The notes under the pieces: model-generated
What the model was told of the DNA's origin: nothing
The model's input: the letters and a program-made list of their open reading frames with translations, nothing else
Database searches by the model: none
Made by a program: the position numbers and the translations under genes
Part shown: piece by piece, positions 12,685 through 27,512 of the stretch
Position numbering within the stretch: the first letter of the stretch is position 1
How the letters are laid out: every line of letters begins with the position of its first letter
Virus record (IMG/VR): IMGVR_UViG_3300020183_004978
Location: 1-52,563 of that record
From: a virus
Lineage: Duplodnaviria; Caudoviricetes
Direction: 5' to 3' (one strand)
DNA length: 52,563 nt

Positions 12685-13350
12685 TTAACATACTTCATTA
12701 AAGAAAAACATATGAAATAACCTACTACTATGAATATCCCAACCAAAATAATTTATTCCGGAATGGATTAATCCACCATCAAAAAGTATTAATCTATTAA
12801 ATACATTTCCTACAGTATCAACAGTTTCATAAGGTGTGCTATCTAGGAATGTTTTTTGATTAAATACTTTTAATCCATCACCAGCTTCCCAATTAATTTG
12901 AGTGTTATGAAATATTTTAGTTTGTTTATGTCTATAAAAACTAGTACCCGATTGAGGTGGAGCATCGGGTGTTAGATAAACTATAGCCGCCCATTTTTGA
13001 CTATCGCAATGAAATACTGATGGTACACCTGCTGAGCAATATTGAAAACGTCCATTTATGCCTATGTCAAACCACCCGTATCCATCGGCAAAATCTGCTA
13101 TTTTAGCTCCTATGATACTCTCAAACGCCTCTCTTATACCATCAAATAAAAATTGTTTTCTAGTACGATAACCTACAGCGCCCTCTCCTGGAAAATATAT
13201 TTGTTGTAAGGCAAAGTTTCTAACGGCGTGTGGATCAGTATAAAAATTATCTACAACAAAAAATCGTTTATCTTTTAAATCAGATATTCGACATTGATCT
13301 GTTTCAACTATTCCCCATTCTGATTCAGGATTTTTATCAATGTATTTCAT
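12685..13350 (-). CDS. 2OG-Fe(II) oxygenase (DUF6445-like)
   Basis: VVDNFY.DP..VR, HCD, AAIVYLTPDAP..SGT.FY, NVFNRLILF..H: HxD...H facial triad. Confidence 0.8.
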   Translation of the reverse strand: MKYIDKNPESEWGIVETDQCRISDLKDKRFFVVDNFYTDPHAVRNFALQQIYFPGEGAVGYRTRKQFLFDGIREAFESIIGAKIADFADGYGWFDIGINGRFQYCSAGVPSVFHCDSQKWAAIVYLTPDAPPQSGTSFYRHKQTKIFHNTQINWEAGDGLKVFNQKTFLDSTPYETVDTVGNVFNRLILFDGGLIHSGINYFGWDIHSSRLFHMFFFNEVC

Positions 13351-16139
13351 AGAAATATATTTTTAGCTACTTTTATAGTATCGTCTGTATTTTTAATTTT
13401 ATTAATAATTTTTCTACTAACTAAATCAGGATGTACGTACCAGTCTTCATAGTCGCGATCATCGTGTGGAGCTATGTTTGATAAGATTAATTCATATCCC
13501 TCAGACAATAAATATTCTCTAGATTTTAGCTTATATGATTGTATTTTATCAGTACAATGATCGTGTTCATATGTTATAATAGCAAATTTATATTTATGAA
13601 ATGGTATTTTAGTCAATATATCATACGTTACTGATGATGGATCACAATCAAGTTGTAGATAATCAATATTACGGGGGAAGTTAATTTCTTCTAATAAATC
13701 AATATAATTTATTTGTGTAGCATCTCTACATACAGCTATATTGTTTCTATCTCTAAAATATCTTTCAATTGATTCATATGTTATATCTAGCGATATGCCT
13801 TTCCAATTAAATTTAGATTCTAACAAATATGTATTATTTCCATAAAAGGGATAACCAGCGCCTATTTCTAAGTAAGTACCATTCTTTTTACCATCTAATA
13901 ATGTTAGTACAAACATATCTTGAAACGCCTCAGAGTAGTTTCTATCAATATTTTTAGCATTATTAAACTTGTATTTTAACTTCTTTAAATCACTACTATT
14001 ATATAAGTTTAAATCCCTGGCTGACGTTTCTAATTCTTGGTCTTTGGTTTTTAAAAAAGATATAAACTCGTCATCGTTTTTCCAGGCTTTCATAAACTTC
14101 AAATTATCAATAGTCGCTTGTTTATAAGATGTATCTAACGGTTCGTAAATAGAAAGATACTTAAATAAATTCTTAGATTCATTACATAATCCAGTCCACC
14201 AACCAGTGATTGCTCTTTCAAAAGTTAATCCATAAAATCCTGGATAGTCAAGTGTTGTTTTTAGTTTAGTTGGTTTTTTAATAGCTATTTTTTCTCCGAT
14301 GCAAGCCATTGTGTAAGCGCTAAACCATTTTTTGGCGTGCTCATAGAATCGGCTTAAATAAAAATAACCTTCGGGTCTAGTAGGTATTAATGCTACAGCG
14401 TGTTGTAACATTCCTTCTACCGAGTTGTTTCTGCTTCCTTGTGAATTAAAGCACATGCCCGCTCTTAATAACGCTTCATAACGCACTAATTCGTCATTAG
14501 TCCTTTCAGCCGCCCTTAAATAATATGATACCGCAGATGCTGTCTGTCCTATATCATGATAGTAGCAGCCCGTATAAAAGTTTATTTCTGCGTCTTCTGG
14601 GTATTGGATAAAGTGATCTAATAGCGCCTTTAGTACATCCTCTTCACCCATTAATTTATAAAATGATAATATGGATTGAATATTCATCCACTCATGTTTA
14701 CAATGAGTAAAGTTATTATAAGTTATATCTTCGCTTATTTTTATTTTTTCTTGTTTACCTCTTGTAATTACACCCAATCCCATATCAACATCAATGGTGT
14801 ACATTTCAAGGTCTGCTCTTATTTGTCTTAAATGAACAAACGCTTTCCAACAATCGCCTGTCCACGCTCCTCCTCTAAATGGAATAATTTGCATTTCTTC
14901 GGTAGTTGGAAGCATATCATGACAAATAATATATCCGTTTTTATTTAAACAACCTAACGAATTAATAATGTCTTTATATACTTGATCTACGTGGTGTAGA
15001 CCATCTATAAAGATAATATCAAACGTTTGCTTATTTGTTTTAAAAAACTCGTCTGATGTTAATTTTACAATATTATCCTGTTTGGGATAGGGGTCTACTC
15101 CGATTTTATTTTTTACTAGAATATCATTAAAGTTTACACAATCATCTACACCAATCTCTAGATAACTTTTAGCGTTAATTTTTTTCGCTATGTAATTTAT
15201 TATGTGTGTTCTTATACTTTTGCATAATTTGGGATACTTAAAATATTCTTCTTCAAATTTATTTTCTTGGTAAATATATTGTATTACATTGGCTGGGGGT
15301 AAAAAGAAATTTTTTAATTCTGAATCCTCTAATATTATTTTTGGTAGCTTATCTATGGGGTATGGATGTAAAACATGATCTGCTCTACCAAGAATATCAG
15401 TTCCGCCTTCTTTAGCATTAAATTCTTTTACGTGTTGTTTTGTTTTATCTGAACTTAATAACCCTATACCATCATCTACGATGTCATGAACGTGCATAAA
15501 TGATTCAAGTTTTTGAATTCTTTTACTAGCATCACCCATCCATGATAAATGCCATCCCACGATTTCATTGTCTGTTTCTTTATTAACGATTAAACTTTTA
15601 TATTTTATGTCTGTATTTAGGGTCTCTACTTCTCTAAGTTCACTTAACGTATATTCTTCTACGTGCTTTTTTAAACAGAAAAAGGGTGCTTTCCATTTTT
15701 TTACAGCACCATTAGGCTCGTGAATGCATAAATCTGCTCTTGTTGAATGAAAAGACATTGGTACTCGCACAATACGGTCTGAATGTGTTTTAGATACGTC
15801 TGCTAGTGTTTTTAAATAGATTGGATTTATTATTTCATCACAGTCGCTTATAAACCAAACTTCATCTTCTTGTATTAGTTTGCTTACAGCATTTCTTTGT
15901 TCTCTTTCTCGATTCCAATTATTAGATTGTTCGAGCTCAATATGAATTACTGAAATTTTATTGGAGGATAGATTATATTTTTCTAAAATTTGCTTGCATT
16001 TATATTCTTTATCTATACCGCTGTGTGTTCTATTTGCTTCGCAGATTACAAAACCATCTACATAATTTTGTAGAAGTTTGATTCTAAGAACTAGATGATA
16101 TTCTTCATTGAAAAACGGGAAGCAATCTATTATTTTCAT
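13347..16139 (-). CDS. Multidomain enzyme: GT17-like glycosyltransferase + class I methyltransferase + TPR + FkbM-like methyltransferase
   Basis: IIDCFPFFNE..REREQRN..ISDCDEI..GWHLSW (GT17); YLEIGV..FDIIFIDGLH..HD (methyltransferase); helical repeats; QDMFV..YLEIGA..NNTYLLE..IDYLQLD (FkbM-like). Confidence 0.8.
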   Translation of the reverse strand: MKIIDCFPFFNEEYHLVLRIKLLQNYVDGFVICEANRTHSGIDKEYKCKQILEKYNLSSNKISVIHIELEQSNNWNREREQRNAVSKLIQEDEVWFISDCDEIINPIYLKTLADVSKTHSDRIVRVPMSFHSTRADLCIHEPNGAVKKWKAPFFCLKKHVEEYTLSELREVETLNTDIKYKSLIVNKETDNEIVGWHLSWMGDASKRIQKLESFMHVHDIVDDGIGLLSSDKTKQHVKEFNAKEGGTDILGRADHVLHPYPIDKLPKIILEDSELKNFFLPPANVIQYIYQENKFEEEYFKYPKLCKSIRTHIINYIAKKINAKSYLEIGVDDCVNFNDILVKNKIGVDPYPKQDNIVKLTSDEFFKTNKQTFDIIFIDGLHHVDQVYKDIINSLGCLNKNGYIICHDMLPTTEEMQIIPFRGGAWTGDCWKAFVHLRQIRADLEMYTIDVDMGLGVITRGKQEKIKISEDITYNNFTHCKHEWMNIQSILSFYKLMGEEDVLKALLDHFIQYPEDAEINFYTGCYYHDIGQTASAVSYYLRAAERTNDELVRYEALLRAGMCFNSQGSRNNSVEGMLQHAVALIPTRPEGYFYLSRFYEHAKKWFSAYTMACIGEKIAIKKPTKLKTTLDYPGFYGLTFERAITGWWTGLCNESKNLFKYLSIYEPLDTSYKQATIDNLKFMKAWKNDDEFISFLKTKDQELETSARDLNLYNSSDLKKLKYKFNNAKNIDRNYSEAFQDMFVLTLLDGKKNGTYLEIGAGYPFYGNNTYLLESKFNWKGISLDITYESIERYFRDRNNIAVCRDATQINYIDLLEEINFPRNIDYLQLDCDPSSVTYDILTKIPFHKYKFAIITYEHDHCTDKIQSYKLKSREYLLSEGYELILSNIAPHDDRDYEDWYVHPDLVSRKIINKIKNTDDTIKVAKNIFL

Positions 16140-17112
16140 CTATAAATTTTTCTATTGTTAATTTAGGAGCTCTTAATAGAAAAGCGGCATTATCTTGAAA
16201 TCCGAAGGTCATTAAATAATAATCGCCATATTCAGCCATACCAATGCAAAATTCAACGTCAGCAGCCATAAAATGAAATTCTTGTGTTGTTTTAATTATA
16301 TTAAAATCTTTATCCCACACTATAAAACGATGATAATATACGGCATCTTTTCTCCCCTCTTCGCTGTTAAATAAATCTACTTCGTGTGTAATAGCAAAGT
16401 AACCATTTTTATATGGTAGAATTTGAGATCCGCCTCTTAAATCCCTTGGAAGTGTAATATGATTACTCATATGAACTGTTCGTGATGTACCAGTATTAGG
16501 ATTTACCTCAACTAACTCAGTTGGATTAGCCCATTTTACATAATAAAAGGGTTTATCTATAACGGGCATCCAGTTTTTTTCACAGTATGAATTTGGATCA
16601 TTTGGTGGAGCAATTCTTATTCTACTAATCTCTTTTATGCCATTTTCATTTATTTGTATCTCAGATAATTCCATTCTACCAACTCCATTAGTTGTAGTAT
16701 CTCTACGTACTCCTGATAGATATATTTTATTATTCCATTCAATAATACGGGCATCCTCTAATCCTACAAAATCCCATAATGGCTCATATATGTCAAATTG
16801 GCTAGTATCTACTTTATGATACTTATTTATTTTAAAATTATCATCTATTTCACAATACCAATTCCATGTTCGTAAATGAATATCATCTTCAGGGTGGATA
16901 TAAGTTAGAGGACCATATGGGTGTTGAAATAATTTTTTCTCTGAGTGGTAGAATGTATAATTTACATGTCTAATAATGACTGTAATTTTTCCATCTTTTA
17001 CCATTATAGATGGATTCATCAATCCAGTACCATTAGTAAGATTAGCGGGAATAAGGAGAGGAGTAATATCACCCCCAGCATCTATAATACGTTTAACTAG
17101 ATTTTTCTCCAT
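16105..17112 (-). CDS. Five-bladed beta-propeller glycoside phosphorylase/transferase-like protein (GH130/GT91-like)
   Basis: NPSI, GLEDAR, EKNWMP, LRGGS, Y.HRF, VEFC.G motifs. Confidence 0.7.
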   Translation of the reverse strand: MEKNLVKRIIDAGGDITPLLIPANLTNGTGLMNPSIMVKDGKITVIIRHVNYTFYHSEKKLFQHPYGPLTYIHPEDDIHLRTWNWYCEIDDNFKINKYHKVDTSQFDIYEPLWDFVGLEDARIIEWNNKIYLSGVRRDTTTNGVGRMELSEIQINENGIKEISRIRIAPPNDPNSYCEKNWMPVIDKPFYYVKWANPTELVEVNPNTGTSRTVHMSNHITLPRDLRGGSQILPYKNGYFAITHEVDLFNSEEGRKDAVYYHRFIVWDKDFNIIKTTQEFHFMAADVEFCIGMAEYGDYYLMTFGFQDNAAFLLRAPKLTIEKFIDENNRLLPVFQ

Positions 17113-17252
17113 AACTTAACTACTATCTTGTCATCTTTTACCATTAGAGATGGATTCATTAATCCAGTTCTTGAGGTTAATTCAGAAGCAATTATCAGGG
17201 GGTGAATGCTCCCTCCGTCTTTTATGGCTCTTTTGACTAGGTTTTTTTCCAA
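17097..17252 (-). pseudogene. Truncated paralog (51 aa) of the N-terminus of 16105..17112
   Basis: TTG-start EKNLVKRAIKDGGSIHPLIIASELTSRTGLMNPSLMVKDDKIVV aligns by eye with MEKNLVKRIIDAGGDITPLLIPANLTNGTGLMNPSIMVKDGKITV. Confidence 0.85.
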
Positions 17253-17254
17253 AA

Positions 17255-17473
17255 TTACAATTTATCCCCTTTGTTTATTCCGTACTTTATGTAGTTGTAC
17301 CAAACTCTCTCGTGGATGTAATATTGAATTGGTTTCCACAGTAGCTCCATAATTGTAAAAGCGCTACCTATTTTCAGAGATCCAGTAAAAAGCCAAACAG
17401 TTAAGAAACCTATAGTTGTACTAATTATCCTATAAGATATTGTCTTCGCTACGTGTCTCCTTTTGTTTACCAT
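17255..17473 (-). CDS. DUF2061-like small membrane protein
   Basis: RHVAKTISYRII...YYIHERVW signature; ATG at 17473 preferred over the track start. Confidence 0.8.
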   Translation of the reverse strand: MVNKRRHVAKTISYRIISTTIGFLTVWLFTGSLKIGSAFTIMELLWKPIQYYIHERVWYNYIKYGINKGDKL

Positions 17474-17816
17474 AAGTATCAATTTCTCCTTTTCTTATTT
17501 TAGTACCGCTTATTTCAGCGATATTTTGAGGAGGGTCGTGAAAAACAACTTCGTATCCCACTCCCCTTCCGTAATTTACGCTTTCTATGTCTGGTATGAT
17601 AGAAAGCAATATGTTACTGGCGTGTTTCTTAAAAAAATCGTGATTTTGTAACTCTTTAAATATTTTTTTTGCTGACTTTGGATTGTTTTCATCTATTTTC
17701 ACGTCCCTTATAGCTATCCAAACATTTTTACCTTTGTCTAACTGTTGACTAATCAACCACTCGTGACCCGAATGAAAATTCTGCCAACGACCTATGTACA
17801 ACGCATATTTTCTCAT
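17430..17816 (-). CDS. HxGH nucleotidyltransferase (cytidylyltransferase-like); candidate minimal ATP sulfurylase
   Basis: IGRWQNFHSGH and ISGTKIR motifs; overlaps the cysC stop. Confidence 0.75.
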   Translation of the reverse strand: MRKYALYIGRWQNFHSGHEWLISQQLDKGKNVWIAIRDVKIDENNPKSAKKIFKELQNHDFFKKHASNILLSIIPDIESVNYGRGVGYEVVFHDPPQNIAEISGTKIRKGEIDTYGKQKETRSEDNIL

Positions 17817-18256
17817 AGTCCCAATTTAAACAACAATTCTGAAACTGAGCTATCTTCTGATTCGTGTGTGGTATCTATTTGAATAAAATCGTAAGTTGGA
17901 GGCTGGTACTCCTTCACGTGATAGCTTTCTCTTCCCCTTTCTTCGGAAGTGCTCACGTATATTTCAGCCACAGGGTTTTCTTTTTTGAAATCTTCCCTTT
18001 GGTCTCTATAAGGAGACACCAAAGATACCACGACGTCGTGACCCTTGTAACTCATAAACTTAGCTATTTCTTGAGCTCTGTTTATGTTTTGACGACGACC
18101 CTCTTCCGAATAGTTTTTATTTTCAAAAATATTTCTTAGATCGTCTCCGTCTATGTGAACGGGATTGAGCGTAGCTTTTTTAGATATGTGCTCAATTAAC
18201 CTTTTTGCAAGAGTCGTTTTCCCAGCCCCCGGTTGACCTGTTAACCAGTATATCAT
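17813..18256 (-). CDS. cysC: Adenylyl-sulfate (APS) kinase
   Basis: WLTGQPGAGKTT P-loop, IDGDDLR, R..NI, VSPY..R motifs. Confidence 0.9.
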   Translation of the reverse strand: MIYWLTGQPGAGKTTLAKRLIEHISKKATLNPVHIDGDDLRNIFENKNYSEEGRRQNINRAQEIAKFMSYKGHDVVVSLVSPYRDQREDFKKENPVAEIYVSTSEERGRESYHVKEYQPPTYDFIQIDTTHESEDSSVSELLFKLGL

Positions 18257-18258
18257 AA

Positions 18259-19221
18259 CTAATTTTTTTCTATAGCCTTGTATATTTCGCTTGTGTCAAA
18301 CATTTCAGTTACGTCGTAATAGGGACACTCGTGAGCTATTCCATCGAAAGAGTAATCAAAAAGGTAAGAATCGATCATTTTAATTTCGTTCTTCGGTGGA
18401 TTGGCTATTATGTTTTTGTGTATGTCGTAACCAAAGTTTTTATATGATGTACCCACCCAAAGTACGGTAGATTTTAGTTTCATAGCCGCGGCTGCGTGTT
18501 GTAGGCAAGAGTCTATTAACACCCGCTTTTCAGAAAGCACGAGCATAGAAAAAAGATCGTGATTAGTCATCGACGCGTTAACGAATTCAACCCCAGGTAT
18601 AGAGTGGCCCGGATTTCTGCCCACTTGAATTATGTGATACGTGCTAGAGTACTTGTTTACTATTTGAGTTGATATCTCGTAGGGCATGTCCCTAGTCCAA
18701 GAATACAAAGTGTCTTGTTGTAAAGGACCCCCGTTAGTGTGCAAAATCATTACGGGCTTGTCTCTCTTCCAATTGTACATCAAACTCTTTTGTATCATAT
18801 TAGGATACAAAATTGGTTGCTGATTTTCGTAAGGCACGTTTAATAAGTTACACCAATTTTCTATTAGGTGTTTCTTTTTCATTATGTGATCTGACTGGAA
18901 GTACGGCTCGTGCCTAAAAACTATCGTGTCTTTGTCTTTTATGTAATCGTCATAAAAGTAAGAAGTTATGCCTACTCTGTACACTCTGTGTATATCTGGG
19001 TGATTAAGAAAAACTTCAGGGTAAGAAACTACGAGTATCAGCTTTCTATCTGAATACTTCTTTTTTATAGAAGATATTAGAGCTGTAGCTGCTACGTTTT
19101 TGCCCAATCCTCCTTCTACGTGCCAAACTACGTATTTTTGGCTGTTGTTTGATTTATCTTCCGAAACTGCGAATTTTTCTTCTCTCAGTAATTGTGATTG
19201 TGTTTTGTAACCTACCAGCAT
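18259..19221 (-). CDS. GT9-like (GT-B fold) glycosyltransferase
   Basis: GGLGKNV, IIQVG, IDSCLQHAAAA, VLW..T..FGY motifs. Confidence 0.75.
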   Translation of the reverse strand: MLVGYKTQSQLLREEKFAVSEDKSNNSQKYVVWHVEGGLGKNVAATALISSIKKKYSDRKLILVVSYPEVFLNHPDIHRVYRVGITSYFYDDYIKDKDTIVFRHEPYFQSDHIMKKKHLIENWCNLLNVPYENQQPILYPNMIQKSLMYNWKRDKPVMILHTNGGPLQQDTLYSWTRDMPYEISTQIVNKYSSTYHIIQVGRNPGHSIPGVEFVNASMTNHDLFSMLVLSEKRVLIDSCLQHAAAAMKLKSTVLWVGTSYKNFGYDIHKNIIANPPKNEIKMIDSYLFDYSFDGIAHECPYYDVTEMFDTSEIYKAIEKN

Positions 19222-19223
19222 AA

Positions 19224-20045
19224 CTACATTTTGTATCTAAAATCGTTGAAGAACCACGGATAAGCGTCCTGTATTAGCTTACAAGCGTTAGATCCCAAAA
19301 CCTCCCTAAAGTCGTCTCTCACTGGTTTCAACTGTTGTCTGATAATGTGATCTCCGAATACGCCGTACCACTTATCGTCTTCTTTTGTGTATTGAGGAAC
19401 GTTATTGAAATCGTGTTCGAAGTAAGGCAATTCTAAATACTCGTAAATAGCTCTAAGTTGAGGTTCGGGGTTTTCACACAACTCTTCGAATTTTATGAAT
19501 AAGATGTTTGGATGTATGCCTGTCACTAAAATCTCGTACAATCTATCCATTGAGGGACCTATTGGAGGATTGTTGGACCACACCATCATCCTCTTGTCTA
19601 CGTTCGTACCTGTCAAGTTTCCCCAATTTGACAAGTGATGATCTATAAGGGGGTTTTGTCTATACTTCTTTTCCATAGAAGCGTATATCGCTCTTATATC
19701 CCTTATCATGCAAATTACTTTAGGATTCGGATCGAAAGAGTTTAAAAAAGCGTACTCTGATCCCCAGCCCCTACACTTTTCTACGACGTAAGGTCTATCG
19801 GTGAGGGGTTCGTAAAATGCGTATAGTCCCGCTCTCAAAAAAGATTTGAAACCCGATTCCATCTCTTTTGGGTCCTGAGCCTTGAATTCTAAAGAATCTG
19901 AATAGATAGTCCTACACGCAGCTAACATCTCGTAAATTCCCGAGGTGGGAGTAGTGTGTATGTCTGGATTTTGACTTAGTATGTTTTGTATGAGAGTAGA
20001 GCCCGCTCTGGGTAAAGAACTATTATAGAACACTTTTTTAATCAT
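19224..20045 (-). CDS. Sulfotransferase family protein
   Basis: SLPRAGSTL 5'-phosphosulfate loop, IRD..AIYAS 3'-phosphate motif, IKFEEL..NP. Confidence 0.88.
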   Translation of the reverse strand: MIKKVFYNSSLPRAGSTLIQNILSQNPDIHTTPTSGIYEMLAACRTIYSDSLEFKAQDPKEMESGFKSFLRAGLYAFYEPLTDRPYVVEKCRGWGSEYAFLNSFDPNPKVICMIRDIRAIYASMEKKYRQNPLIDHHLSNWGNLTGTNVDKRMMVWSNNPPIGPSMDRLYEILVTGIHPNILFIKFEELCENPEPQLRAIYEYLELPYFEHDFNNVPQYTKEDDKWYGVFGDHIIRQQLKPVRDDFREVLGSNACKLIQDAYPWFFNDFRYKM

Positions 20046-20430: not shown

Positions 20431-20578
20431 TTATTTATTAATAAATATTGAGTTTTCAAAGAATGCGTCTATTTGAAATACGCACCCTCCGTACAAATTT
20501 GGAAAAGCGTGATATTCCAATATTCGCTTCAATGTCTACAACCCTCTTGGGTTCAAGGTATCTAAAAAGTTTGTCCAC
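20431..20578 (-). pseudogene. Internally deleted FkbM-like methyltransferase remnant
   Basis: GTG-start DKLFRYLEPKRVVDIEANIG (degenerate DIGANIG) joined out of frame to EYHAFPNLYGGCVFQIDAFF (FkbM-like C-terminus). Confidence 0.6.
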
Positions 20579-21459
20579 TCTTTTACTCTTTCTTCCCAAC
20601 TCCACCTAGTTGAGTACGCTTGCTTTTGCAATTTTAAATGCTCTTTTAATTCTCCGCTCCTTACTTTGTGTATTTCTTCTGAAAGAATTCTAGAAAACTT
20701 TTTGTAGTGATATTCCTTGTTTGCTAAGTAAGGATACATTCTGGCCCAACCCTCTGTGGTTTCAGGCAGCGCTCCTAAATTGGAAGTCACCACTCTCAGT
20801 CCTGCAGATAGCGCTTCTATGACAGATATACAAGAAGTCTCCTCAAAAGTACACGGATAAGCCAGAACGTGAAAAGACGGTAGTTCTTTAAGTAGATCTT
20901 TATTTTCTATAGATCCTCGATAGGTGACTCCTGGTAAGCTCCTGGCTCTTTCGTACAACTGTTCGTACACGCTCTCTTGAGAGGAAGAAAAATCCTTACC
21001 ATATATTTTTGTGCTAGAAAAGACGTGTAGCTCGCAGTTTTCGGGGTTTAACTCTTCCCAAGAATCTAGTAACACGTCTAGTCCCCTCCAAGGAGTAGAA
21101 GTGTAGCACACTTTTACTGTTTCTATTGGAGATTCAAAATCTTTGTCGTAAGTCTGTATACACGCGTTCTTTATCACTTGCGTCTTGTATCCTGGTATGC
21201 CGTAAATCTTTCTGAAACACTCAGCTTGCCATTGACTGACAAAGACGAAAGCGTCTATTTGATCCACGAATGAAGACGTGTTTAAGAATTTAACAGCCTG
21301 TTGATCGTAAGAGAGCTGGTTCCAATACACTAGTTTTTTAGAAGCGTCTGCGTAAACTGGATAGTTAAAAATACTAAATGCTTCTTTGTGGTGCGAGGGT
21401 AACCTATTCATAAGTTCCTCGTACATCAACTCGGTTCCTCCCATCGGTTTGTCAAACAT
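20536..21459 (-). CDS. Glycosyltransferase, GT4-like
   Basis: GGTE, FVSQWQ, YTSTPWRGL, YP..FEETSCISVIEA..G, GALPET. Confidence 0.88.
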   Translation of the reverse strand: MFDKPMGGTELMYEELMNRLPSHHKEAFSIFNYPVYADASKKLVYWNQLSYDQQAVKFLNTSSFVDQIDAFVFVSQWQAECFRKIYGIPGYKTQVIKNACIQTYDKDFESPIETVKVCYTSTPWRGLDVLLDSWEELNPENCELHVFSSTKIYGKDFSSSQESVYEQLYERARSLPGVTYRGSIENKDLLKELPSFHVLAYPCTFEETSCISVIEALSAGLRVVTSNLGALPETTEGWARMYPYLANKEYHYKKFSRILSEEIHKVRSGELKEHLKLQKQAYSTRWSWEERVKEWTNFLDTLNPRGL

Positions 21460-22108
21460 ACTCTAATTTTTTTAGATAGTTTTCGAGGTTTCCCTGGTAC
21501 TTTTTGTATCCTATGTGATTCAGCGTTATAGTTGGGTCGATCCACACTCGATATCCCAATTCTTGCCACTTTTGAGCCAAAACGTAATCCTCTGATATTA
21601 AGTCTCCGTTTTTTACTTTCACATCGAACACCATCCTTTCTTTTTGCCCCTCCGAATCGTAATGTTCGCTGATATTCCACAGTTTTTCTAGAGCAAACTT
21701 AGAAACTTTTAAAAACCCAGTACCCACACCGTCTACGCAAATTATTTTTTTGTCTTCAGACCACTTTAGCTTTTTTTCTTCCAACTTAACAGTGTAACCC
21801 TCTTCTTCTGACTTTTTAACTAGGGCGGCTCCAACTATTGGCTCATGTCTTTTTAACAGACTAAAAAACCACTCTGGATCCCACTCTACGTCTGAATCTA
21901 TGAAGAAGAGGTCGTCGTACTGTTCTTGTATTGCTATTCTAACTAAAGAGTTTCTGGCTCTCTGTATAAGAGAATCGTAAGACGTGTAAACCGCGTGTAC
22001 AAACACGTTCTCTTGATAAGATCTTTTTACGGTTTGTAAAAGGGAATTGGCGTACCAAACGCCAACTGATCCGTCGTAACACGGAGTGCCTATCAAAACT
22101 CTTCGCAT
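21452..22108 (-). CDS. GT-A fold (GT2-like) glycosyltransferase
   Basis: IGTPCY, SLIQRARN, FIDSDV, GTGF, SEDY, L.HIG motifs. Confidence 0.8.
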   Translation of the reverse strand: MRRVLIGTPCYDGSVGVWYANSLLQTVKRSYQENVFVHAVYTSYDSLIQRARNSLVRIAIQEQYDDLFFIDSDVEWDPEWFFSLLKRHEPIVGAALVKKSEEEGYTVKLEEKKLKWSEDKKIICVDGVGTGFLKVSKFALEKLWNISEHYDSEGQKERMVFDVKVKNGDLISEDYVLAQKWQELGYRVWIDPTITLNHIGYKKYQGNLENYLKKLEYV

Positions 22109-22127: not shown

Positions 22128-25100
22128 TTATTTGTTTTCTAAATTTGTAATCCTAGTGTCAAGTTCTTGTACGGATTTTACTATTGATGCTATAAGTTCT
22201 TCGTAAGTCAACCTATAAGCGTCTTTGTCGTCATCGTGACCAAGGCCGTCGAATTTAACTCCCAATTCGTCTATTACTTGCTTCAATTCTTGAGCAATGA
22301 ATCCGTAGTGTTCCTTATTTCCTATTAAAGTGCCGTCTTTATCTCCGTAATTGTACTTACACTCTCTAACGTACGTTTCTCTATTATCCCAATTAAAAGC
22401 CACGGGTCTAAGCTTTTTAATAAAAGATAGACCAAGTTTTTCTGGTAAAGATTTTACGTTAGTTTTATCCCTGCAATCAGAAACGGTAGACCATGCAACG
22501 TATACACAGTTACAAACGTTATTTCCAGAGTTACCCCAAACTGTGTGTCCGGTCGTAGCGCTTGTAGCACTAGTTGCTCCGACTGCTATCGTGTTGTTGA
22601 CACCCGTATTAAGACCGCTCTGCGCCTTTACGCCTACCGCGGTATTACAATTTCCCGAAGTGTTACTCTTCAGAGCACAAAAGCCTACACCAGTGTTACA
22701 ACAACCGGCCGAAATACTACTCAAAACATCAGCTCCAAAAGCTGAGTTACAACCTCCCGAAAGATAAAGGCCTGACAAAGTCGACATTCCAACACCTGTA
22801 TTTTGAGCTGCCGTATTGGCCTGTAGAGATTTGTAGCCTATCCCTATGTTCGATCCACCGTTACCTGCGTTACACATCGCAAAAGTGCCTATAGCTATAT
22901 TTTCTGATCCGTTAGAACTATTGGCCAACGTGCAGGCTCCTATAGCAATGTTTCTGTTGTTACCGTTACACCTTAAAGAGAACGCTCCAATCGCTACGTT
23001 GTGACTTTCGAAAGTTGTAGCCATGTTGTTTGAGAATAAAGCGCACCTGCCTATAGCGATGTTGTAACCTCCGGTAGTGTTGCACCTAAGAGACAAGTAA
23101 CCTATCGCAACGTTGTTAGTTCCCCTTGTGTTTGCAGCAGCTGCCAAGCTGCCGATCGCAGTGTTAAAGGTGCCCGAAGTGTTACAAATAAGAGCGCTAG
23201 ATCCCACTGCAACGTTATTCACTCCTGTGGTGTTAGCTGTGATAGAGTAAGCGCCCACAGCGATGTTTGCAGTAGTTGTGTTTGTAGAGGCAAACGTATT
23301 CTTTAAAGCGTTTCTTCCCAATGCTATGTTGTGATTACCCGGATTCGCGTTTGGTGAAGACATGGCTTGGTATCCCATAACGATGTTGTGCCCTCCGTTC
23401 ATGCGACACGCTGTCCTGTATCCAAAAGCTATGTTGCAACCTCCACCTCCATTGCCCGCTTCCATCACAAGTTGACCGACTAAAAAGTTAGTGTCGCCGC
23501 AGTTACTGTCTCCTGCTCTGTATCCTATTATGGTTGATCTATGGAAATTACATCCACTCCTACCAGCTGACCTACCAATTAGAGTATTAGAATCCCCCGT
23601 CGTGATTCCACAACCTGGCAAATCTCCCAACATCACATTAAAAGCGCCGCTAGTTAAGGTGGTTCCTGCAGAACTTCCTATCAAAACATTTGCACGACCA
23701 GACGTCATCGCCTGCCCTACATCCCTTCCCACAACCGTGTTCCTAACTCCAGTAGTAAGACAAATTAAACCATGATGTGATATTGCAATATTAGCATAAC
23801 CGGTTGTAACTTTGTAAAGAGCGCAAGTACCAATGGCTATGTTTGAATTAGTAGGCCAATAGTTAGGGTTACCAGCGGGAGCAAAATTTGAATTTCTAAG
23901 CGCTTGGTATCCGATTGCTATTTGCAAATGATTACTTACGTTCGATAATAGAGCCTGATTACCTATTGCTATATTACGCCTACCGCTTACGTTAGAAGCT
24001 AGTGATCTAGACCCTATTGCGACGTTAGAATAACCTACAGTAGCTGCGGTGAGTGCGTACGCGCCAACTGCAATATTAGATGTAGCGGAAGTGGATCCAA
24101 AATTCTGGGCTAGTCCTGCTCCCCTACCCACCGCAACGTTGAAGCCTCCCGTAGTGTTTGCGCAAAGCGCTCTGTACCCCATCGCTACGTTGCTTGCACC
24201 CGTGATGTTTGACCCAAGAGCGTTGCAACCCAACACAGAGTTGGTAATTACTGCTCCCCCTCCCCTACCTACAGCAAGCGAATTTACCACTAAAGCAGTC
24301 CCATCGAAAGTTAAATTGGCTTCTCCATTAATAGTGCCCGCTACTCCTGTAGCTGTGAGTACGAAGTTGTCTACGTTGTTGTTAATGGTAGCAGCACCAG
24401 CTATGCCTTGAATTCCCTGTGTTCCCTGCGTTCCTTGCGCTCCGGTATTACCAGTGGTTCCCTGTGTTCCCTGTGCTCCAGTATTACCAGTGGTTCCCTG
24501 TATTCCCTGTGCTCCAGTGCTGCCTGTAGCTCCTTGCGTTCCTTGCGCTCCGGTATTACCAGTGGTTCCCTGTATTCCCTGTGCCCCAGTGCTGCCTGTG
24601 GCTCCCTGTGTTCCCTGTGCTCCAGTATTACCAGTGGTTCCCTGTATTCCCTGTGCTCCAGTACTGCCTGTGGCTCCTTGCGTTCCTTGCGCTCCGGTAT
24701 TACCAGTGGTTCCTTGTATTCCCTGTGCTCCTGTAGTTCCTTGTATTCCCTGAGTTCCCTGCGCTCCAATGTTACCAGTGGTTCCCTGTATTCCCTGTGT
24801 TCCCTGTATTCCCTGAATTCCTTGAGTTCCTTGTGTTCCCTGAGTTCCCTGCGCTCCGCCTGTTCCTGTAATTCCTTGTGTGCCTTGAGATCCTCCTGAT
24901 CCAGTCGATCCCTGTGTTCCCTGCGTTCCCTGTGCTCCTGTAGTTCCTTGTATTCCCTGAGTTCCCTGTGCTCCAATGTTACCAGTGGTTCCTTGTATTC
25001 CCTGTGCTCCAGTACTGCCTGTGGCTCCCTGCGTTCCCTGTGCTCCAATGTTACCAGTGGTTCCCTGTATTCCCTGTGCTCCTGTAGTTCCTTGTATTCC

Positions 25101-27512
25101 CTGGGTTCCCTGCGCTCCAATGTTACCAGTGGTTCCCTGTATTCCCTGTGCTCCAGTAGTTCCTTGTATTCCCTGAGTTCCCTGCGCTCCAACGTTACCA
25201 GTGGTTCCCTGTATTCCCTGTGCTCCCGTAGTTCCTTGTATTCCCTGAGTTCCTTGCGCTCCAACGTTACCGGTGGTTCCCTGTATTCCCTGTGCGCCTG
25301 TAGTTCCCTGTATTCCCTGAGTTCCCTGCGCTCCAACGTTACCAGTGGTTCCCTGTATTCCCTGTGTTCCCTGTATTCCCTGAATTCCTTGAGTTCCTTG
25401 TGTTCCCTGAGTTCCTTGAGTTCCCTGTATTCCCTGTGTTCCTTGTGTTCCTTGTATTCCCTGAATTCCTTGAGCCCCAGTTATGCCTTGTATTCCCTGA
25501 GTTCCTTGTGTTCCTTGTATTCCCTGAATTCCTTGAGCCCCAGTTATGCCTTGTATTCCCTGCGTTCCTTGAGCTCCTTCTATACCTTGTATTCCCTGAA
25601 TTCCTTGAGCCCCAGTTATGCCTTGTATTCCCTGAATTCCCTGTGTTCCTTGAGTTCCCTGAATTCCTTGTGCCCCAGTTATACCTTGTATTCCTTGTGT
25701 TCCCTGTATTCCCTGCGTTCCTTGAGTTCCTTGTGTTCCTTGCGTTCCTTGAGTTCCTTGTGTTCCCTGGATTCCTTGAATTCCTTGAATGCCCTGGAGA
25801 CTTAAGTCCGTCCTATATCGAAAATTTCCGCTTGTGTCACTTACTACTATATTAGTCTCTGTTGAACCAAGAGGAATATTAGTAAATGATAGACTACCGG
25901 TAATAGAAACGGATCCAGAAAATTGATGGGTGTTTATTGATGGTAAAGTTCCAAACTTAGTAGATCCTGTGATGAAATCCCTAGAAGAAGTGACTTCTTG
26001 GACTACCAAAGTTTGAGCTGTTATGTTACCCGTTGAAAATAAATTTCCGGTTAAAGAAAGAGTAGTTCCATCGAAAGTTAAATTACTTTCTCCATTAAAA
26101 GGTGTCGCTGAATTTCCTGTAGCAGTTACTACAAAATTATTTGTGTTATTAGTTAAAGATGTAGACGCGTCTGTGCCTTGAATTCCTTGTATTCCCTGAA
26201 TTCCCTGTGTTCCTTGAGTTCCCTGAATTCCCTGTGTTCCTTGTATTCCTTGAATTCCTTGTATTCCTTGAGTTCCCTGAATTCCTTGCGCCCCAGTTAT
26301 ACCTTGTATTCCTTGTGTTCCTTGTATTCCCTGAATTCCTTGAGTTCCTTGAGTTCCCTGTATTCCCTGCGTTCCTTGAGTTCCTTGCGCTCCGCCTGCT
26401 CCGCCTGTTCCTGTAATTCCCTGTGTTCCTTGAGCTCCTTCTATACCTTGTATTCCCTGAATTCCTTGAGCCCCAGTTATGCCTTGAATTCCTTGTGTTC
26501 CTTGTATTCCCTGAATTCCCTGTGTTCCTTGGGTTCCCTGAATTCCTTGCGCCCCAGTTATACCTTGTATTCCTTGTATTCCCTGAATTCCTTGCGCCCC
26601 AGTTATACCTTGTATTCCTTGTATTCCCTGAATTCCTTGTGTTCCTTGAATTCCCTGAATTCCTTGCGCCCCAGTTATACCTTGTATTCCTTGTATTCCC
26701 TGAATTCCTTGTGTTCCTTGAATTCCCTGAATTCCCTGAATTCCTTGAGCCCCAGTTATGCCTTGAATTCCCTGTGTTCCTTGAGTTCCCTGAATTCCCT
26801 GTATTCCTTGAGCTCCTTCTATACCTTGTATTCCCTGAATTCCTTGAGCCCCAGTTATGCCTTGAATTCCTTGTATTCCCTGAATTCCCTGTGTTCCTTG
26901 TATTCCCTGAATTCCTTGCGCCCCAGTTATGCCTTGTATTCCTTGTGTTCCTTGTATTCCCTGAATTCCTTGCGCCCCAGTTATGCCTTGTATTCCTTGA
27001 ATTCCTTGGGTTCCTTGAGTTCCTTGAATTCCCTGAATTCCTTGAGTTCCTTGTGTTCCCTGTATTCCTTGAATTCCCTGTATTCCTTGAATTCCCTGTG
27101 TTCCTTGAGTTCCCTGAATTCCTTGTGCCCCAGTTATACCTTGTATTCCTTGTGTTCCTTGTATTCCCTGAATTCCCTGTGTTCCTTGAGTTCCCTGAGT
27201 TCCTTGAGTTCCCTGTATTCCCTGCGTTCCTTGTGTTCCTTGCGTTCCTTGAGTTCCTTGTGTTCCTTGCGTTCCTTGAATACCTTGAACCCCCTGTGTT
27301 CCTTGAGTTCCCTGTAAACTTAAATCTGATCTGAATTTGAAAGATCCGCTTGAATCGATTACCGCTATATTGGTTTCCGTGGTGCCCTGTACGACGTTTG
27401 GAAGATTTAAAGAACCCGATATCAATACGCTTCCGCTTATCGAAAGCGATCCTGTAATTTGAGAATTGTCTAGGGCTATTAGACCATTTCTTACTACGAA
27501 TTCGTTAGCCAT
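22128..27512 (-). CDS. Long tail fibre: two collagen-like tracts, YadA-head-like NxAIG repeats, C-terminal peptidase S74 chaperone
   Basis: Gly-X-Y tracts; repeated N.A[IV]G..AL..N; SDCRDKTNV..L.FIKKLRPV.F..GFIAQE..terminal coiled coil. Confidence 0.88.
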   Translation of the reverse strand: MANEFVVRNGLIALDNSQITGSLSISGSVLISGSLNLPNVVQGTTETNIAVIDSSGSFKFRSDLSLQGTQGTQGVQGIQGTQGTQGTQGTQGTQGTQGIQGTQGTQGTQGTQGIQGIQGTQGIQGITGAQGIQGTQGTQGIQGIQGIQGIQGTQGTQGIQGIQGTQGTQGIQGIQGITGAQGIQGIQGTQGIQGITGAQGIQGIQGTQGIQGIQGIQGITGAQGIQGIQGIEGAQGIQGIQGTQGTQGIQGITGAQGIQGIQGIQGTQGIQGIQGIQGITGAQGIQGIQGTQGIQGIQGIQGITGAQGIQGIQGIQGITGAQGIQGTQGTQGIQGIQGTQGIQGITGAQGIQGIQGIEGAQGTQGITGTGGAGGAQGTQGTQGIQGTQGTQGIQGIQGTQGIQGITGAQGIQGTQGIQGIQGIQGTQGIQGTQGTQGIQGIQGIQGTDASTSLTNNTNNFVVTATGNSATPFNGESNLTFDGTTLSLTGNLFSTGNITAQTLVVQEVTSSRDFITGSTKFGTLPSINTHQFSGSVSITGSLSFTNIPLGSTETNIVVSDTSGNFRYRTDLSLQGIQGIQGIQGTQGTQGTQGTQGTQGTQGIQGTQGIQGITGAQGIQGTQGTQGIQGIQGITGAQGIQGIQGIEGAQGTQGIQGITGAQGIQGIQGTQGTQGIQGITGAQGIQGIQGTQGTQGIQGTQGTQGTQGTQGIQGIQGTQGIQGTTGNVGAQGTQGIQGTTGAQGIQGTTGNVGAQGTQGIQGTTGAQGIQGTTGNVGAQGTQGIQGTTGAQGIQGTTGNIGAQGTQGIQGTTGAQGIQGTTGNIGAQGTQGATGSTGAQGIQGTTGNIGAQGTQGIQGTTGAQGTQGTQGSTGSGGSQGTQGITGTGGAQGTQGTQGTQGIQGIQGTQGIQGTTGNIGAQGTQGIQGTTGAQGIQGTTGNTGAQGTQGATGSTGAQGIQGTTGNTGAQGTQGATGSTGAQGIQGTTGNTGAQGTQGATGSTGAQGIQGTTGNTGAQGTQGTTGNTGAQGTQGTQGIQGIAGAATINNNVDNFVLTATGVAGTINGEANLTFDGTALVVNSLAVGRGGGAVITNSVLGCNALGSNITGASNVAMGYRALCANTTGGFNVAVGRGAGLAQNFGSTSATSNIAVGAYALTAATVGYSNVAIGSRSLASNVSGRRNIAIGNQALLSNVSNHLQIAIGYQALRNSNFAPAGNPNYWPTNSNIAIGTCALYKVTTGYANIAISHHGLICLTTGVRNTVVGRDVGQAMTSGRANVLIGSSAGTTLTSGAFNVMLGDLPGCGITTGDSNTLIGRSAGRSGCNFHRSTIIGYRAGDSNCGDTNFLVGQLVMEAGNGGGGCNIAFGYRTACRMNGGHNIVMGYQAMSSPNANPGNHNIALGRNALKNTFASTNTTTANIAVGAYSITANTTGVNNVAVGSSALICNTSGTFNTAIGSLAAAANTRGTNNVAIGYLSLRCNTTGGYNIAIGRCALFSNNMATTFESHNVAIGAFSLRCNGNNRNIAIGACTLANSSNGSENIAIGTFAMCNAGNGGSNIGIGYKSLQANTAAQNTGVGMSTLSGLYLSGGCNSAFGADVLSSISAGCCNTGVGFCALKSNTSGNCNTAVGVKAQSGLNTGVNNTIAVGATSATSATTGHTVWGNSGNNVCNCVYVAWSTVSDCRDKTNVKSLPEKLGLSFIKKLRPVAFNWDNRETYVRECKYNYGDKDGTLIGNKEHYGFIAQELKQVIDELGVKFDGLGHDDDKDAYRLTYEELIASIVKSVQELDTRITNLENK
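24390..25793 (-). repeat. Collagen-like coding repeat, about 156 Gly-X-Y triplets
   Basis: 9-nt period; GTQ/GIQ/GAQ/GTT/GNT/GST triplets; no Pro. Confidence 0.95.
26178..27311 (-). repeat. Collagen-like coding repeat, about 126 Gly-X-Y triplets
   Basis: 9-nt period; GIQ/GTQ/GIT/GAQ triplets; no Pro. Confidence 0.95.

What the first reader, a model, noticed from the sequence alone, without database searches (positions are those of the whole stretch)
17255..20045. Compact PAPS supply and sulfation unit with a possible minimal, non-canonical ATP sulfurylase
Seen: sulfotransferase, GT9-like gene, cysC, a 128 aa HxGH nucleotidyltransferase overlapping the cysC stop, and DUF2061. No sat or cysDN is in the window. 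Established: PAPS synthesis needs ATP sulfurylase plus APS kinase, and Sat-type sulfurylases belong to the HxGH nucleotidyltransferase superfamily but are roughly three times longer. Inference: the small protein makes APS, and cysC here serves virion sulfation rather than acting as an auxiliary gene for host sulfur assimilation.
Basis: partly seen in the sequence, partly recalled or inferred. Interest (0 to 1): 0.75.

Follow-up and report, generated by a model that had tools for sequence, protein, structure and literature searches.

The report
Candidate minimal ATP sulfurylase beside viral cysC
A tiny enzyme gene next to the phage's APS kinase belongs to a large unstudied family that probably performs the first step of sulfate activation in many marine microbes and viruses that lack the known enzymes for it.

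Summary
The five genes are real, on the minus strand: sulfotransferase, a 320-aa unknown, a short-lid APS kinase, a 128-aa HxGH nucleotidyltransferase (NT) whose ATG overlaps the cysC stop, and DUF2061. "GT9-like" is only a lead.

NT is not a shrunken Sat. It is a shortened relative of archaeal NMNAT/NadM with its own invariant motif.

- NT lies within 600 bp of an APS kinase, or is fused to it, in 49 of 60 cellular loci.
- 50 of the 58 long forms among the top 150 family representatives carry an APS-kinase domain, in either order.
- 39 of 50 NT-bearing genomes have neither Sat nor CysD, though 50 of 50 have APS kinase.
- In a Chitinophagaceae sample, 55 of 55 NT-less cysC genomes have CysD or Sat. 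The one NT genome has neither, and NT sits where sat sits in the 8 Sat genomes examined.
- Other loci place NT after sulfite reductase and cysH, or with cysQ-like and sulfotransferase genes.

Best reading (about 0.65): a third, minimal type of ATP sulfurylase that feeds CysC. There is no biochemistry. Virion sulfation rests on gene position only. The window is about 32% of the virus genome.

The parts
19224..20045 (-). PAPS-type sulfotransferase, 273 aa. Its closest solved relatives are tyrosylprotein sulfotransferases.
   Evidence: PF13469 56.2 bits and PF00685 45.1 bits. phrog_27463, E 4.4e-37. PDB: TPST1, E 2.2e-6, with the 5'-phosphosulfate loop and the 3'-phosphate motif aligned.
18259..19221 (-). 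320-aa protein of unknown family; possibly a GT9-like glycosyltransferase (a lead only).
   Evidence: No Pfam or PHROG hit. An Atlas neighbour cluster has PF01075 in 26% of members. Homologues sit beside the same module in L007 and L090.
17813..18256 (-). Short-lid APS kinase (CysC-like), 147 aa.
   Evidence: PF01583 70.9 bits. TIGR00455 scores 71.7, below its 138.7 cut-off. All 22 PDB hits are APS kinases, best 8a8h at 9e-13. The P-loop, DGDxxR and Arg/Asn columns are invariant, but the N-terminal extension and about 18 lid residues are missing compared with the long forms.
17430..17816 (-). 128-aa HxGH nucleotidyltransferase; candidate minimal ATP sulfurylase.
   Evidence: Its ATG overlaps the cysC stop. 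It keeps all 25 family-invariant residues, including the HxGH motif, the IPDIESVNYGRGVGY block and ISxTxxR. AF2 model pLDDT is 79.5. Fold matches are PPAT/NMNAT/NadM at Z 8.2-9.2. Linkage to APS kinase is shown.
17255..17482 (-). DUF2061 small membrane protein (75 aa; 72 aa if it starts at the ATG at 17473).
   Evidence: PF09834 57.5 bits. It lies within 100 bp of NT in 60 of 80 viral loci and elsewhere in the locus in 19 more. It is fused to the N-terminus of CysC in 10 Chitinophagaceae-type loci.
20536..22108 (-). Context: two glycosyltransferase-like genes (307 aa GT1-type, 218 aa) between the module and the fibre gene.
   Evidence: PF13692 and PF00534 for the 307-aa protein. The 218-aa protein has only weak hits.
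13347..17112 (-). Context: a 930-aa GT17/methyltransferase/TPR protein and a 335-aa protein whose DNA matches cyanophage genes annotated 'beta-mannosyltransferase' and 'MGP protein'.
22128..27512 (-). Context: a 1794-aa collagen-like tail fibre directly upstream of the modification block. It is a possible target of the modifications (inference).
   Evidence: Gly-X-Y repeats are visible. It hits many tail-fibre PHROGs, for example phrog_5073 at 1.5e-183.

Best explanation
The 128-aa protein belongs to a large uncharacterised family of about 110-150-aa HxGH nucleotidyltransferases. The family descends from the archaeal NMNAT/NadM branch. It has lost about 30 residues of the acceptor-binding part and gained an invariant IPDIESVNYGR(G/D)VGY loop.

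It most likely acts as a sulfate adenylyltransferase (ATP + sulfate -> APS + PPi). The translationally coupled short-lid APS kinase then converts APS to PAPS, which pulls the unfavourable first step forward. DUF2061 probably tethers or assists the pair at the membrane. In this phage the PAPS would feed the adjacent TPST-like sulfotransferase.

Shown: gene identities, conserved linkage and fusions, and the absence of known sulfurylases in most carrier genomes.

Inferred: the reaction itself, the role of DUF2061, and the target of sulfation.
For: 1. Linkage to APS kinase. An APS kinase lies on the same strand within 100 bp of NT, or is fused to it, in 43 of 60 cellular loci, and within 600 bp in 6 more. 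These loci come from Marinimicrobia, Bacteroidota, group III euryarchaea, Thaumarchaeota and others. The same holds within 100 bp in 40 of 80 viral loci.

2. Fusions in both orders. 39 of 41 longer homologues carry PF01583. Among the top 150 family representatives, 58 are 230 aa or longer, and 50 of those 58 carry PF01583. L021 is NT-CysC, while L023, L026 and L032-L034 are CysC-NT. Fused kinase-NT proteins in Salvo, Sano and DLP_6 phages keep the invariant residues.

3. The partners are genuine APS kinases. 6 of 7 tested exceed the TIGR00455 cut-off, scoring 157.7-278.5 against 138.7.

4. Complementarity with known sulfurylases. All 50 NT-bearing genomes have an APS kinase. Only 4 have Sat and 7 have CysD, so 39 of 50 have neither. 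These include two complete chromosomes (G015, G046) and all 9 Chitinophagaceae-type genomes (G040-G048).

5. Baseline. Of 151 sampled Chitinophagaceae genomes, 56 have cysC. Of these, 42 have CysD, 13 have Sat, and only NT-bearing G046 has neither. In the 8 Sat genomes whose loci were read, sat follows cysC directly, which is the slot NT occupies in G046.

6. Operon contexts.
- Nitrospiraceae: sulfite reductase, then PAPS_reduct (CysH), then NT.
- Bacteroidota L037: CysC, NT, one further gene, a CysQ-like Inositol_P protein, a flippase, then further on a Sulfotransfer_1 gene.
- Marinimicrobia: CysC, NT, an aminotransferase, then Sulfotransfer_5.

7. Not a housekeeping enzyme. The five carrier genomes tested hold other PF01467 paralogues.

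8. Viruses. All 3 complete related viral genomes have cysC and NT but no Sat or CysD.

9. Chemistry. The HxGH motif is essential in the human ATP sulfurylase domain (PMC11697783, passages read).
Against: - There is no biochemical evidence of any kind.
- The protein shows no specific similarity to Sat. hhalign gives 9.3% probability. The PDB profile search finds only NMNAT-type relatives. The top 50 fold rows are PPAT, NMNAT and NadM.
- The invariant loop, residues 81-88, is modelled with pLDDT below 50, so no active-site argument can be made.
- 11 of 50 carrier genomes also have Sat or CysD. These include three with fused CysC-NT (G026-G028) and the Nitrospiraceae.
- Many carriers are incomplete single-cell or metagenome assemblies.
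- 40 of 80 viral loci show NT and DUF2061 without cysC in the fetched stretch; UvdE lies upstream instead in 33 of them.
- The window's own CysC is a short-lid form below the NCBIfam equivalog cut-off.
- The carrier set and the baseline set differ in taxonomy and assembly quality. The Fisher values ignore relatedness and are not true probabilities.
Confidence: 0.65

Rival explanations
1. The pair makes a different 3'-phosphorylated nucleotide donor. The NT would attach a nucleotide to some other anionic acceptor, and the CysC-like kinase would then phosphorylate the 3'-OH. From recall, precedents are the Campylobacter phosphoramidate pathway, whose Cj1415 kinase is a CysC homologue, and PPAT plus dephospho-CoA kinase.
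For: The window's kinase is a divergent short-lid form below the TIGR00455 cut-off. The top structural matches are PPAT. JGI names many family members PPAT.
Against: In other lineages NT is paired or fused with kinases that pass the APS-kinase equivalog cut-off. It also sits beside CysH, sulfite reductase, CysQ-like genes and PAPS-type sulfotransferases. The carrier genomes tested hold separate PF01467 paralogues. The carriers lack the known APS source.
Confidence: 0.17
2. The NT is an NMN or NaMN adenylyltransferase for NAD salvage, and the P-loop kinase is a nucleoside kinase. From recall, NadR combines NMNAT with ribosylnicotinamide kinase. Host Sat would supply any APS needed.
For: The nearest sequence relatives with structures are archaeal NMNAT and NadM (1f9a at 1.5e-8; 30% identity to 1f9a). 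The GRxQPxHxGH and NP(F)T motifs are shared. In Xylella phage Bacata the fused gene lies next to a protein annotated 'COG3236 / GTP cyclohydrolase II'.
Against: NCBIfam NMNAT models match only the first 33 or so residues, far below cut-off (19.7 against 181.2). The protein is about 30-50 residues shorter than NMNATs in the acceptor part. None of the 58 long forms carries a Nudix or NadR-type domain, while 50 carry APS kinase.
Confidence: 0.08
3. The NT is a non-catalytic or regulatory partner of APS kinase, and APS comes from the host or from an unrecognised source.
For: Inactive sulfurylase-like domains fused to APS kinase exist; 3cr8, titled 'Hexameric APS kinase from Thiobacillus denitrificans', appears, and its inactive sulfurylase-like domain is from recall. 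The virus could draw on its host's sulfurylase.
Against: Both His of HxGH, four Arg and the ISxTxxR motif are invariant across 49 diverse members, which fits an active enzyme. Cellular carriers with complete chromosomes have no other known APS source.
Confidence: 0.07

Closest known systems
Sat-type ATP sulfurylase (PF01747; the Sat domain of PAPS synthase)
   Same: It is proposed to catalyse the same reaction. Both belong to the HxGH/HxxH nucleotidyltransferase superfamily. In the 8 Chitinophagaceae Sat genomes whose loci were read, sat occupies the same genomic slot directly after cysC. Both are fused to APS kinase in some lineages.
   Different: It is one third the size and has no PUA-like N-terminal domain. 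It has no PF01747 match, and hhalign probability is 9.3%. It has GRWQxxHxGH and YGR(G/D)VGY instead. The GR resemblance is at motif level only and is not supported by any alignment.
Archaeal NMNAT / NadM NMNAT domain (TIGR01527, PDB 1f9a, 1ej2, 2qjo)
   Same: These are the closest sequence and fold relatives. They share the GRxQPxHxGH, NP(F)T and IPxxDIExxN-like elements and the C-terminal SxTxIR motif.
   Different: The NT is about 30-50 residues shorter. Only the N-terminal third matches the NMNAT models, far below cut-off. It has a family-specific invariant loop. It is linked to APS kinase rather than to Nudix or NadR domains.
CysDN (heterodimeric GTP-coupled ATP sulfurylase)
   Same: It is proposed to fill the same pathway role. 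In the Chitinophagaceae sample, cysC genomes have either CysD, Sat or this NT.
   Different: The fold is unrelated (PAPS_reduct-type ATP pyrophosphatase plus a GTPase). The NT has no GTPase partner.
Metazoan PAPS synthase and bacterial Sat-CysC fusions
   Same: They show the same two-step logic and the same kind of kinase-sulfurylase fusion, in either order.
   Different: The sulfurylase half here comes from a different family. The fused forms are only about 245-430 aa.

Membership tests
HxGH (cytidylyltransferase-like, PF01467) nucleotidyltransferase superfamily | N-terminal (T/H)xGH motif | tested here: met
   H15-S-G-H18 in the window protein. H15, G17 and H18 are invariant in 49 sequences.
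HxGH (cytidylyltransferase-like, PF01467) nucleotidyltransferase superfamily | C-terminal ISxTxxR-type motif | tested here: met
   I102, S103, I107 and R108 are invariant, and T105 is at least 90% conserved.
HxGH (cytidylyltransferase-like, PF01467) nucleotidyltransferase superfamily | Rossmann-like nucleotidyltransferase fold | tested here: met
   AF2 model pLDDT 79.5. PPAT/NMNAT/NadM matches at Z 8.2-9.2, with mostly 105-112 residues aligned.
HxGH (cytidylyltransferase-like, PF01467) nucleotidyltransferase superfamily | Pfam PF01467 score above the gathering cut-off | tested here: not met
   15.6 bits against 21 for the window protein. 33 of 58 long relatives match at E<=1e-5.
Sat-type ATP sulfurylase (PF01747) | Match to the ATP-sulfurylase domain profile | tested here: not met
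   No Pfam hit. hhalign of the family against 10 Sat sequences gives probability 9.3%, covering only the HxGH region.
Sat-type ATP sulfurylase (PF01747) | QxRNPxHxxH and GRDHAG active-site signatures | tested here: not met
   The session's Sat set has QTRNPIHRAHE and GRDHAG. The NT has GRWQNFHSGH and YGRGVGY. Only HxGH is shared.
Sat-type ATP sulfurylase (PF01747) | N-terminal PUA-like domain; about 380-400 aa | tested here: not met
   The NT is 128 aa. The Sat ORFs are 383-397 aa.
Sat-type ATP sulfurylase (PF01747) | Catalyses ATP + sulfate -> APS + PPi | not testable with these tools
   Needs an enzyme assay or complementation.
Archaeal NMNAT / NadM (TIGR01527, PRK01153) | Full-length match above the curated cut-off | tested here: not met
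   TIGR01527 scores 19.7 against 181.2, and PRK01153 scores 22.1 against 127. Only residues 5-37 match.
Phosphopantetheine adenylyltransferase (archaeal PRK00777; bacterial CoaD) | Match above the curated cut-off | tested here: not met
   25.2 bits against 104. PPAT leads the fold list, but a shared fold does not show function. The carrier genomes tested have separate PF01467 paralogues.
APS kinase (the 147-aa neighbour) | PF01583 above cut-off, with P-loop and DGDxxR motifs | tested here: met
   70.9 bits against 21.1. G7, G12, K13, D36, G37, D38 and R41 are invariant. 22 of 22 PDB hits are APS kinases.
APS kinase (the 147-aa neighbour) | NCBIfam equivalog score (TIGR00455) and a full-length lid | tested here: not met
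   71.7 against 138.7. The lid is about 18 residues shorter than in the long forms.
PAPS-dependent sulfotransferase (the 273-aa gene) | Sulfotransferase domain with 5'-PSB and 3'-PB motifs | tested here: met
   PF13469 and PF00685 are above cut-off. Both motifs align with TPST1.
Glycosyltransferase family 9 (the 320-aa gene) | PF01075 match | tested here: not met
   No match even at E<=10. The only support is an Atlas neighbour cluster with PF01075 in 26% of members.

The most novel reading that the evidence does not exclude
A third, independently evolved and minimal ATP sulfurylase is born from an NMNAT-like ancestor. Together with APS kinase and the DUF2061 membrane protein it forms a compact PAPS synthase. 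This would be the only sulfate-activating system in several marine and soil lineages and in hundreds of viruses. In this myovirus it would supply a tyrosylprotein-sulfotransferase-like enzyme that sulfates the collagen-like tail fibre or its glycans, which would make this the first case of phage-encoded virion sulfation.
Probability: 0.2. Interest if true: 0.88.

Novelty: new variant of a known kind. Interest (0 to 1): 0.72.

Why it matters
From recall, sulfate activation is currently thought to rely on two enzyme types, Sat and CysDN. Pathway reconstructions use their absence to score genomes as unable to activate sulfate.

This family has 875 representatives at 50% identity clustering with E<=1e-10, and 514 viral contig stretches encode a relative. 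Its members are annotated as PPAT, NMNAT or hypothetical.

If the family is a sulfurylase, several things follow:
- Sulfur budgets and sulfation capacity would need re-reading for Marinimicrobia, uncultured Bacteroidota, marine archaea, some Chitinophagaceae and many phages.
- A roughly 120-aa sulfurylase would be a useful minimal part for making PAPS.
- Phage cysC could be read as part of a self-contained PAPS supply.

The prediction can be tested directly with one small soluble protein.

Tried and rejected
- Complex prediction of CysC with NT gave no verdict (score 0.00). It is not evidence either way.
- hhalign of the NT family against 10 Sat sequences aligned only the HxGH region at 9.3% probability. 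The idea of a truncated Sat is rejected.
- The VIA list shows no Sat among its 50 rows. Foldseek lists Sat entries only at ranks 22 and 45, with TMq 0.36-0.46.
- Clade-wide anticorrelation tests were uninformative because NT is rare. It was found in 1 of 151 Chitinophagaceae and in 4 of 151 genomes in the phylum of G015. The family sample was used as a baseline instead.
- The 'longer' search with DUF2061 found only 6 close relatives and no informative fusion.
- Pfam on the neighbours of the distant cysC in complete viral genomes gave a GHMP kinase and a 2OG oxygenase but no sulfotransferase.
- Literature searches found nothing on this family. The terms were DUF2061; ATP sulfurylase + APS kinase + cytidylyltransferase; sulfate adenylyltransferase + non-canonical + sulfotransferase + phage; cysC + sulfotransferase + cyanophage; and phrases such as 'novel/alternative/lacks ATP sulfurylase'. 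The library omits most subscription journals, and supplements were closed.
- Housekeeping PPAT or NMNAT was considered and rejected, because separate paralogues exist in the carrier genomes tested.
Full report
WHAT IS THERE. The window is a linear viral fragment of 52,563 bases that CheckV rates 32% complete. It covers the structural region of a myovirus, with a tail sheath at 9571-11298, a major head protein at 34859-36523, and baseplate and fibre proteins.

On the minus strand, one search shows five tightly packed ORFs:
- a 273-aa sulfotransferase at 19224-20045 (PF13469, PF00685);
- a 320-aa protein with no family match at 18259-19221;
- a 147-aa APS-kinase-like protein at 17813-18256 (PF01583, 70.9 bits);
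- a 128-aa protein at 17430-17816, whose ATG shares ATGA with the cysC stop;
- a DUF2061 protein at 17255-17482 (PF09834).

The 'GT9-like' label for the 320-aa protein is not verified. Pfam gives nothing even at E<=10. Only one Atlas neighbour cluster, with PF01075 in 26% of its members, points that way. No Sat or CysD/CysH domain is present in the window. With two thirds of the genome unseen, that absence is weak evidence by itself.

THE SMALL PROTEIN. It has the HxGH and ISxTxxR motifs but falls below every curated cut-off. PF01467 scores 15.6 against 21. The archaeal PPAT, NMNAT and NadM models match only about the first 33 residues.

It belongs to a large family:
- 2469 of 2472 candidate proteins of similar length score E<=0.001. 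The 120 listed are 62-100% identical and are named PPAT, NMNAT or hypothetical by JGI.
- 514 of 516 matched viral stretches encode a relative.
- 60 of 97 matched stretches in cellular genomes encode a relative.
- A profile of 49 members finds 3359, 875 and 91 representatives at E<=1e-3, 1e-10 and 1e-30.

Twenty-five positions are invariant across the 49 members. They include G9, R10, Q12, H15, G17, H18, R37 and N45, the block I74-P-D-I-E-S-(V)-N-Y-G-R-(G)-V-G-Y88, and I102, S103, I107 and R108.

By profile, the nearest solved proteins are archaeal NMNATs and NadM (1f9a at 1.5e-8). No Sat appears. The AF2 model has pLDDT 79.5, but the invariant loop at residues 81-88 is below 50. It superposes on PPAT, NMNAT and NadM at Z 8.2-9.2 over residues 1-116, against about 145 residues in the targets.

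So this is not a shrunken Sat. It is a shortened NMNAT-branch enzyme with a new conserved loop where the acceptor site should be.

LINKAGE TO APS KINASE. I called ORFs in the 142 loci held at that point (60 cellular, 80 viral, 2 from cultured phages) and classified them with iterated HMMs built from the window's proteins.

In the 60 cellular loci:
- cysC lies on the same strand within 100 bp of NT, or is fused to it, in 43.
- It lies 100-600 bp away in 6.
- It lies farther away in 2.
- It is absent from the fetched stretch in 9. Four of these are Nitrospirae-type loci, four are at contig edges, and L040 has only about 800 bp of upstream sequence.

In the 80 viral loci:
- cysC abuts NT in 40 and is absent from the stretch in 40.
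- DUF2061 lies within 100 bp in 60, elsewhere in the locus in 19, and was not called in 1.

Fusions occur in both orders. CysC-NT is seen in L023, L026 and L032-L034, and NT-CysC in L021. DUF2061-CysC fusions precede NT in 10 Chitinophagaceae-type loci.

Three independent searches agree:
- 39 of 41 longer homologues carry PF01583.
- 58 of the top 150 family representatives are 230 aa or longer, and 50 of those 58 carry PF01583. None carries a Nudix or NadR-type domain.
- Cultured Xylella, Xanthomonas and Stenotrophomonas phages encode a fused kinase-NT (phrog_10255) that keeps the invariant residues, with YGRDVGY in the loop.

The partners are genuine APS kinases. Six of seven tested exceed the TIGR00455 cut-off, scoring 157.7-278.5 against 138.7. 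The window's own kinase, like those of Marinimicrobia and the archaea, is a short form. It lacks the N-terminal extension and about 18 lid residues but keeps the P-loop, DGDxxR and the conserved Arg/Asn columns.

COMPLEMENTARITY WITH KNOWN SULFURYLASES. All 50 have an APS kinase. Four have Sat and seven have CysD, one of them partial. That leaves 39 of 50 with neither.

The 39 include two complete chromosomes: G015 at 0.97 Mb and G046 at 4.74 Mb, rechecked. They also include all nine Chitinophagaceae-type genomes, G040-G048.

As a baseline I took 151 sampled Chitinophagaceae genomes, asking for at least 90% completeness. Only G046 has NT. Fifty-six have cysC at E<=1e-20. Of those, 42 have CysD, 13 have Sat, and only G046 has neither. 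So 55 of 55 NT-less cysC genomes have a known sulfurylase.

In the 8 of those 13 Sat genomes whose loci I read, sat follows cysC after a gap of about 30-40 nt. That is exactly where NT sits in G046. Fisher tests give about 4e-19 and 4e-11. They ignore relatedness and differences in assembly quality, so they are only illustrative.

OPERON CONTEXT.
- In Nitrospiraceae, which have a separate Sat-CysC fusion, NT directly follows sulfite reductase (NIR_SIR plus TusA) and a PAPS_reduct-family CysH. This links NT to APS itself and not only to PAPS.
- In a Bacteroidota genome the order is CysC, NT, one further gene, a CysQ-like Inositol_P protein, a polysaccharide flippase and, further on, a Sulfotransfer_1 gene.
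- In Marinimicrobia the order is CysC, NT, a class IV aminotransferase and Sulfotransfer_5, amid polysaccharide genes.
- Thirty-four of the 50 carrier genomes have PF13469 sulfotransferases. Few have a strong CysH. For most carriers the product is therefore probably PAPS for sulfation.
- The five carrier genomes tested contain other PF01467 paralogues, so NT is not the housekeeping PPAT or NMNAT.

THE VIRUS. Among 26 related viral records searched (three more were not held), 15 have cysC, including all three rated 100% complete. In two of those three, cysC lies far from NT. Five large records, including those three, have no Sat, no CysD and no PF13469 match.

The sulfotransferase accompanies the module in only 4 of 80 viral loci, plus one MAG contig, L007. 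In the window it is TPST-like, with both PAPS-binding motifs aligned. The module is embedded among glycosyltransferase and methyltransferase genes, next to a 1794-aa collagen-like fibre.

This position makes modification of the virion plausible, but it proves nothing. Modification of the host surface, or a general PAPS/APS supply, are equally open.

WHAT COUNTS AGAINST. There is no assay. No specific similarity to Sat was found. The key loop is poorly modelled. Eleven carriers also have Sat or CysD. Many carriers are incomplete assemblies. Half of the viral loci lack an adjacent cysC. The complex prediction gave no verdict and is not used as evidence.

COMPARISON AND NOVELTY. The protein would work like Sat or CysDN but is a member of neither family. 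It fails the Sat profile, the Sat signatures and the Sat domain architecture. Its closest kin are NMNATs, whose membership cut-offs it also fails.

Six literature searches found no description of it. Of PMC11697783 I read passages only. They confirm that the HNGH histidines are essential for human ATP sulfurylase and that the DGDN motif is essential for APS kinase. Statements about Cj1415, NadR, CoA synthase and the unfavourable equilibrium of sulfate activation come from recall.

I rate this a new variant of a known kind: a new enzyme family for a known reaction.

VERDICT. The main inference is supported by comparative genomics, with confidence about 0.65. The virion-sulfation inference remains open. 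Interest is 0.72.

Noticed in passing
window 17097-17252 (-) and 16105-17112 (-): A 51-aa ORF just downstream of DUF2061 repeats the N-terminus of the next gene, the 335-aa protein. It looks like a truncated tandem duplicate of that gene's 5' end. DNA of the 335-aa gene matches Synechococcus phage genes annotated 'beta-mannosyltransferase' and 'MGP protein' at 64-68% identity.
   Followed up: no
L035 2632-6417 (also L028, L029): Nitrospiraceae operon in the order sulfite reductase (NIR_SIR + TusA), PAPS_reduct-family CysH, then the small NT. These genomes also carry a separate 582-588-aa Sat-CysC fusion.
   Followed up: partly
window 17813-18256; L008-L027 and viral loci: A distinct short-lid APS-kinase subfamily of about 145-155 aa. 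It lacks the N-terminal extension and about 18 lid residues, and is found with the NT in viruses, Marinimicrobia, group III euryarchaea and Thaumarchaeota.
   Followed up: partly
L001 3142-4318 (Xylella phage Bacata); L002 3590-4321: Cultured siphophages encode a fused kinase-NT of about 245 aa, annotated 'adenylylsulfate kinase', 'kinase' or 'hypothetical protein'. In Bacata it lies next to a protein annotated 'COG3236 / GTP cyclohydrolase II'.
   Followed up: partly
L155 4605-5129: In a complete 237-kb related viral genome, a 175-aa ORF two genes upstream of cysC-NT starts with a PRTGSTS-type loop like the 5'-phosphosulfate-binding loop of sulfotransferases. It has no Pfam match.
   Followed up: partly
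33 viral loci, e.g. L127 5105-6004: In the viral loci without an adjacent cysC, a UvdE UV-endonuclease gene ends on the NT start codon. Peptide deformylase, carbamoyltransferase and 2OG-Fe(II) oxygenase genes follow downstream. One database protein of 410 aa (P0121) combines a UvdE domain with the NT.
   Followed up: no
window 22128-27512 (-): A 1794-aa fibre with very long runs of Gly-X-Y collagen-like triplets, rich in Gln, Thr and Ile, and a C-terminal part matching tail-spike PHROGs. GC content and skew rise locally.
   Followed up: no
window 13347-16139 (-): A 930-aa multidomain protein with a GT17-like domain, methyltransferase domains and a TPR repeat.
   Followed up: no
L153 and L154 (complete viral genomes G071, G076): There, cysC lies about 90-160 kb from NT-DUF2061. 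Its neighbours include a GHMP kinase and a 2OG oxygenase (Pfam). Reading ORF starts only, they also include GroEL-, IscU- and IscA-like genes.
   Followed up: partly
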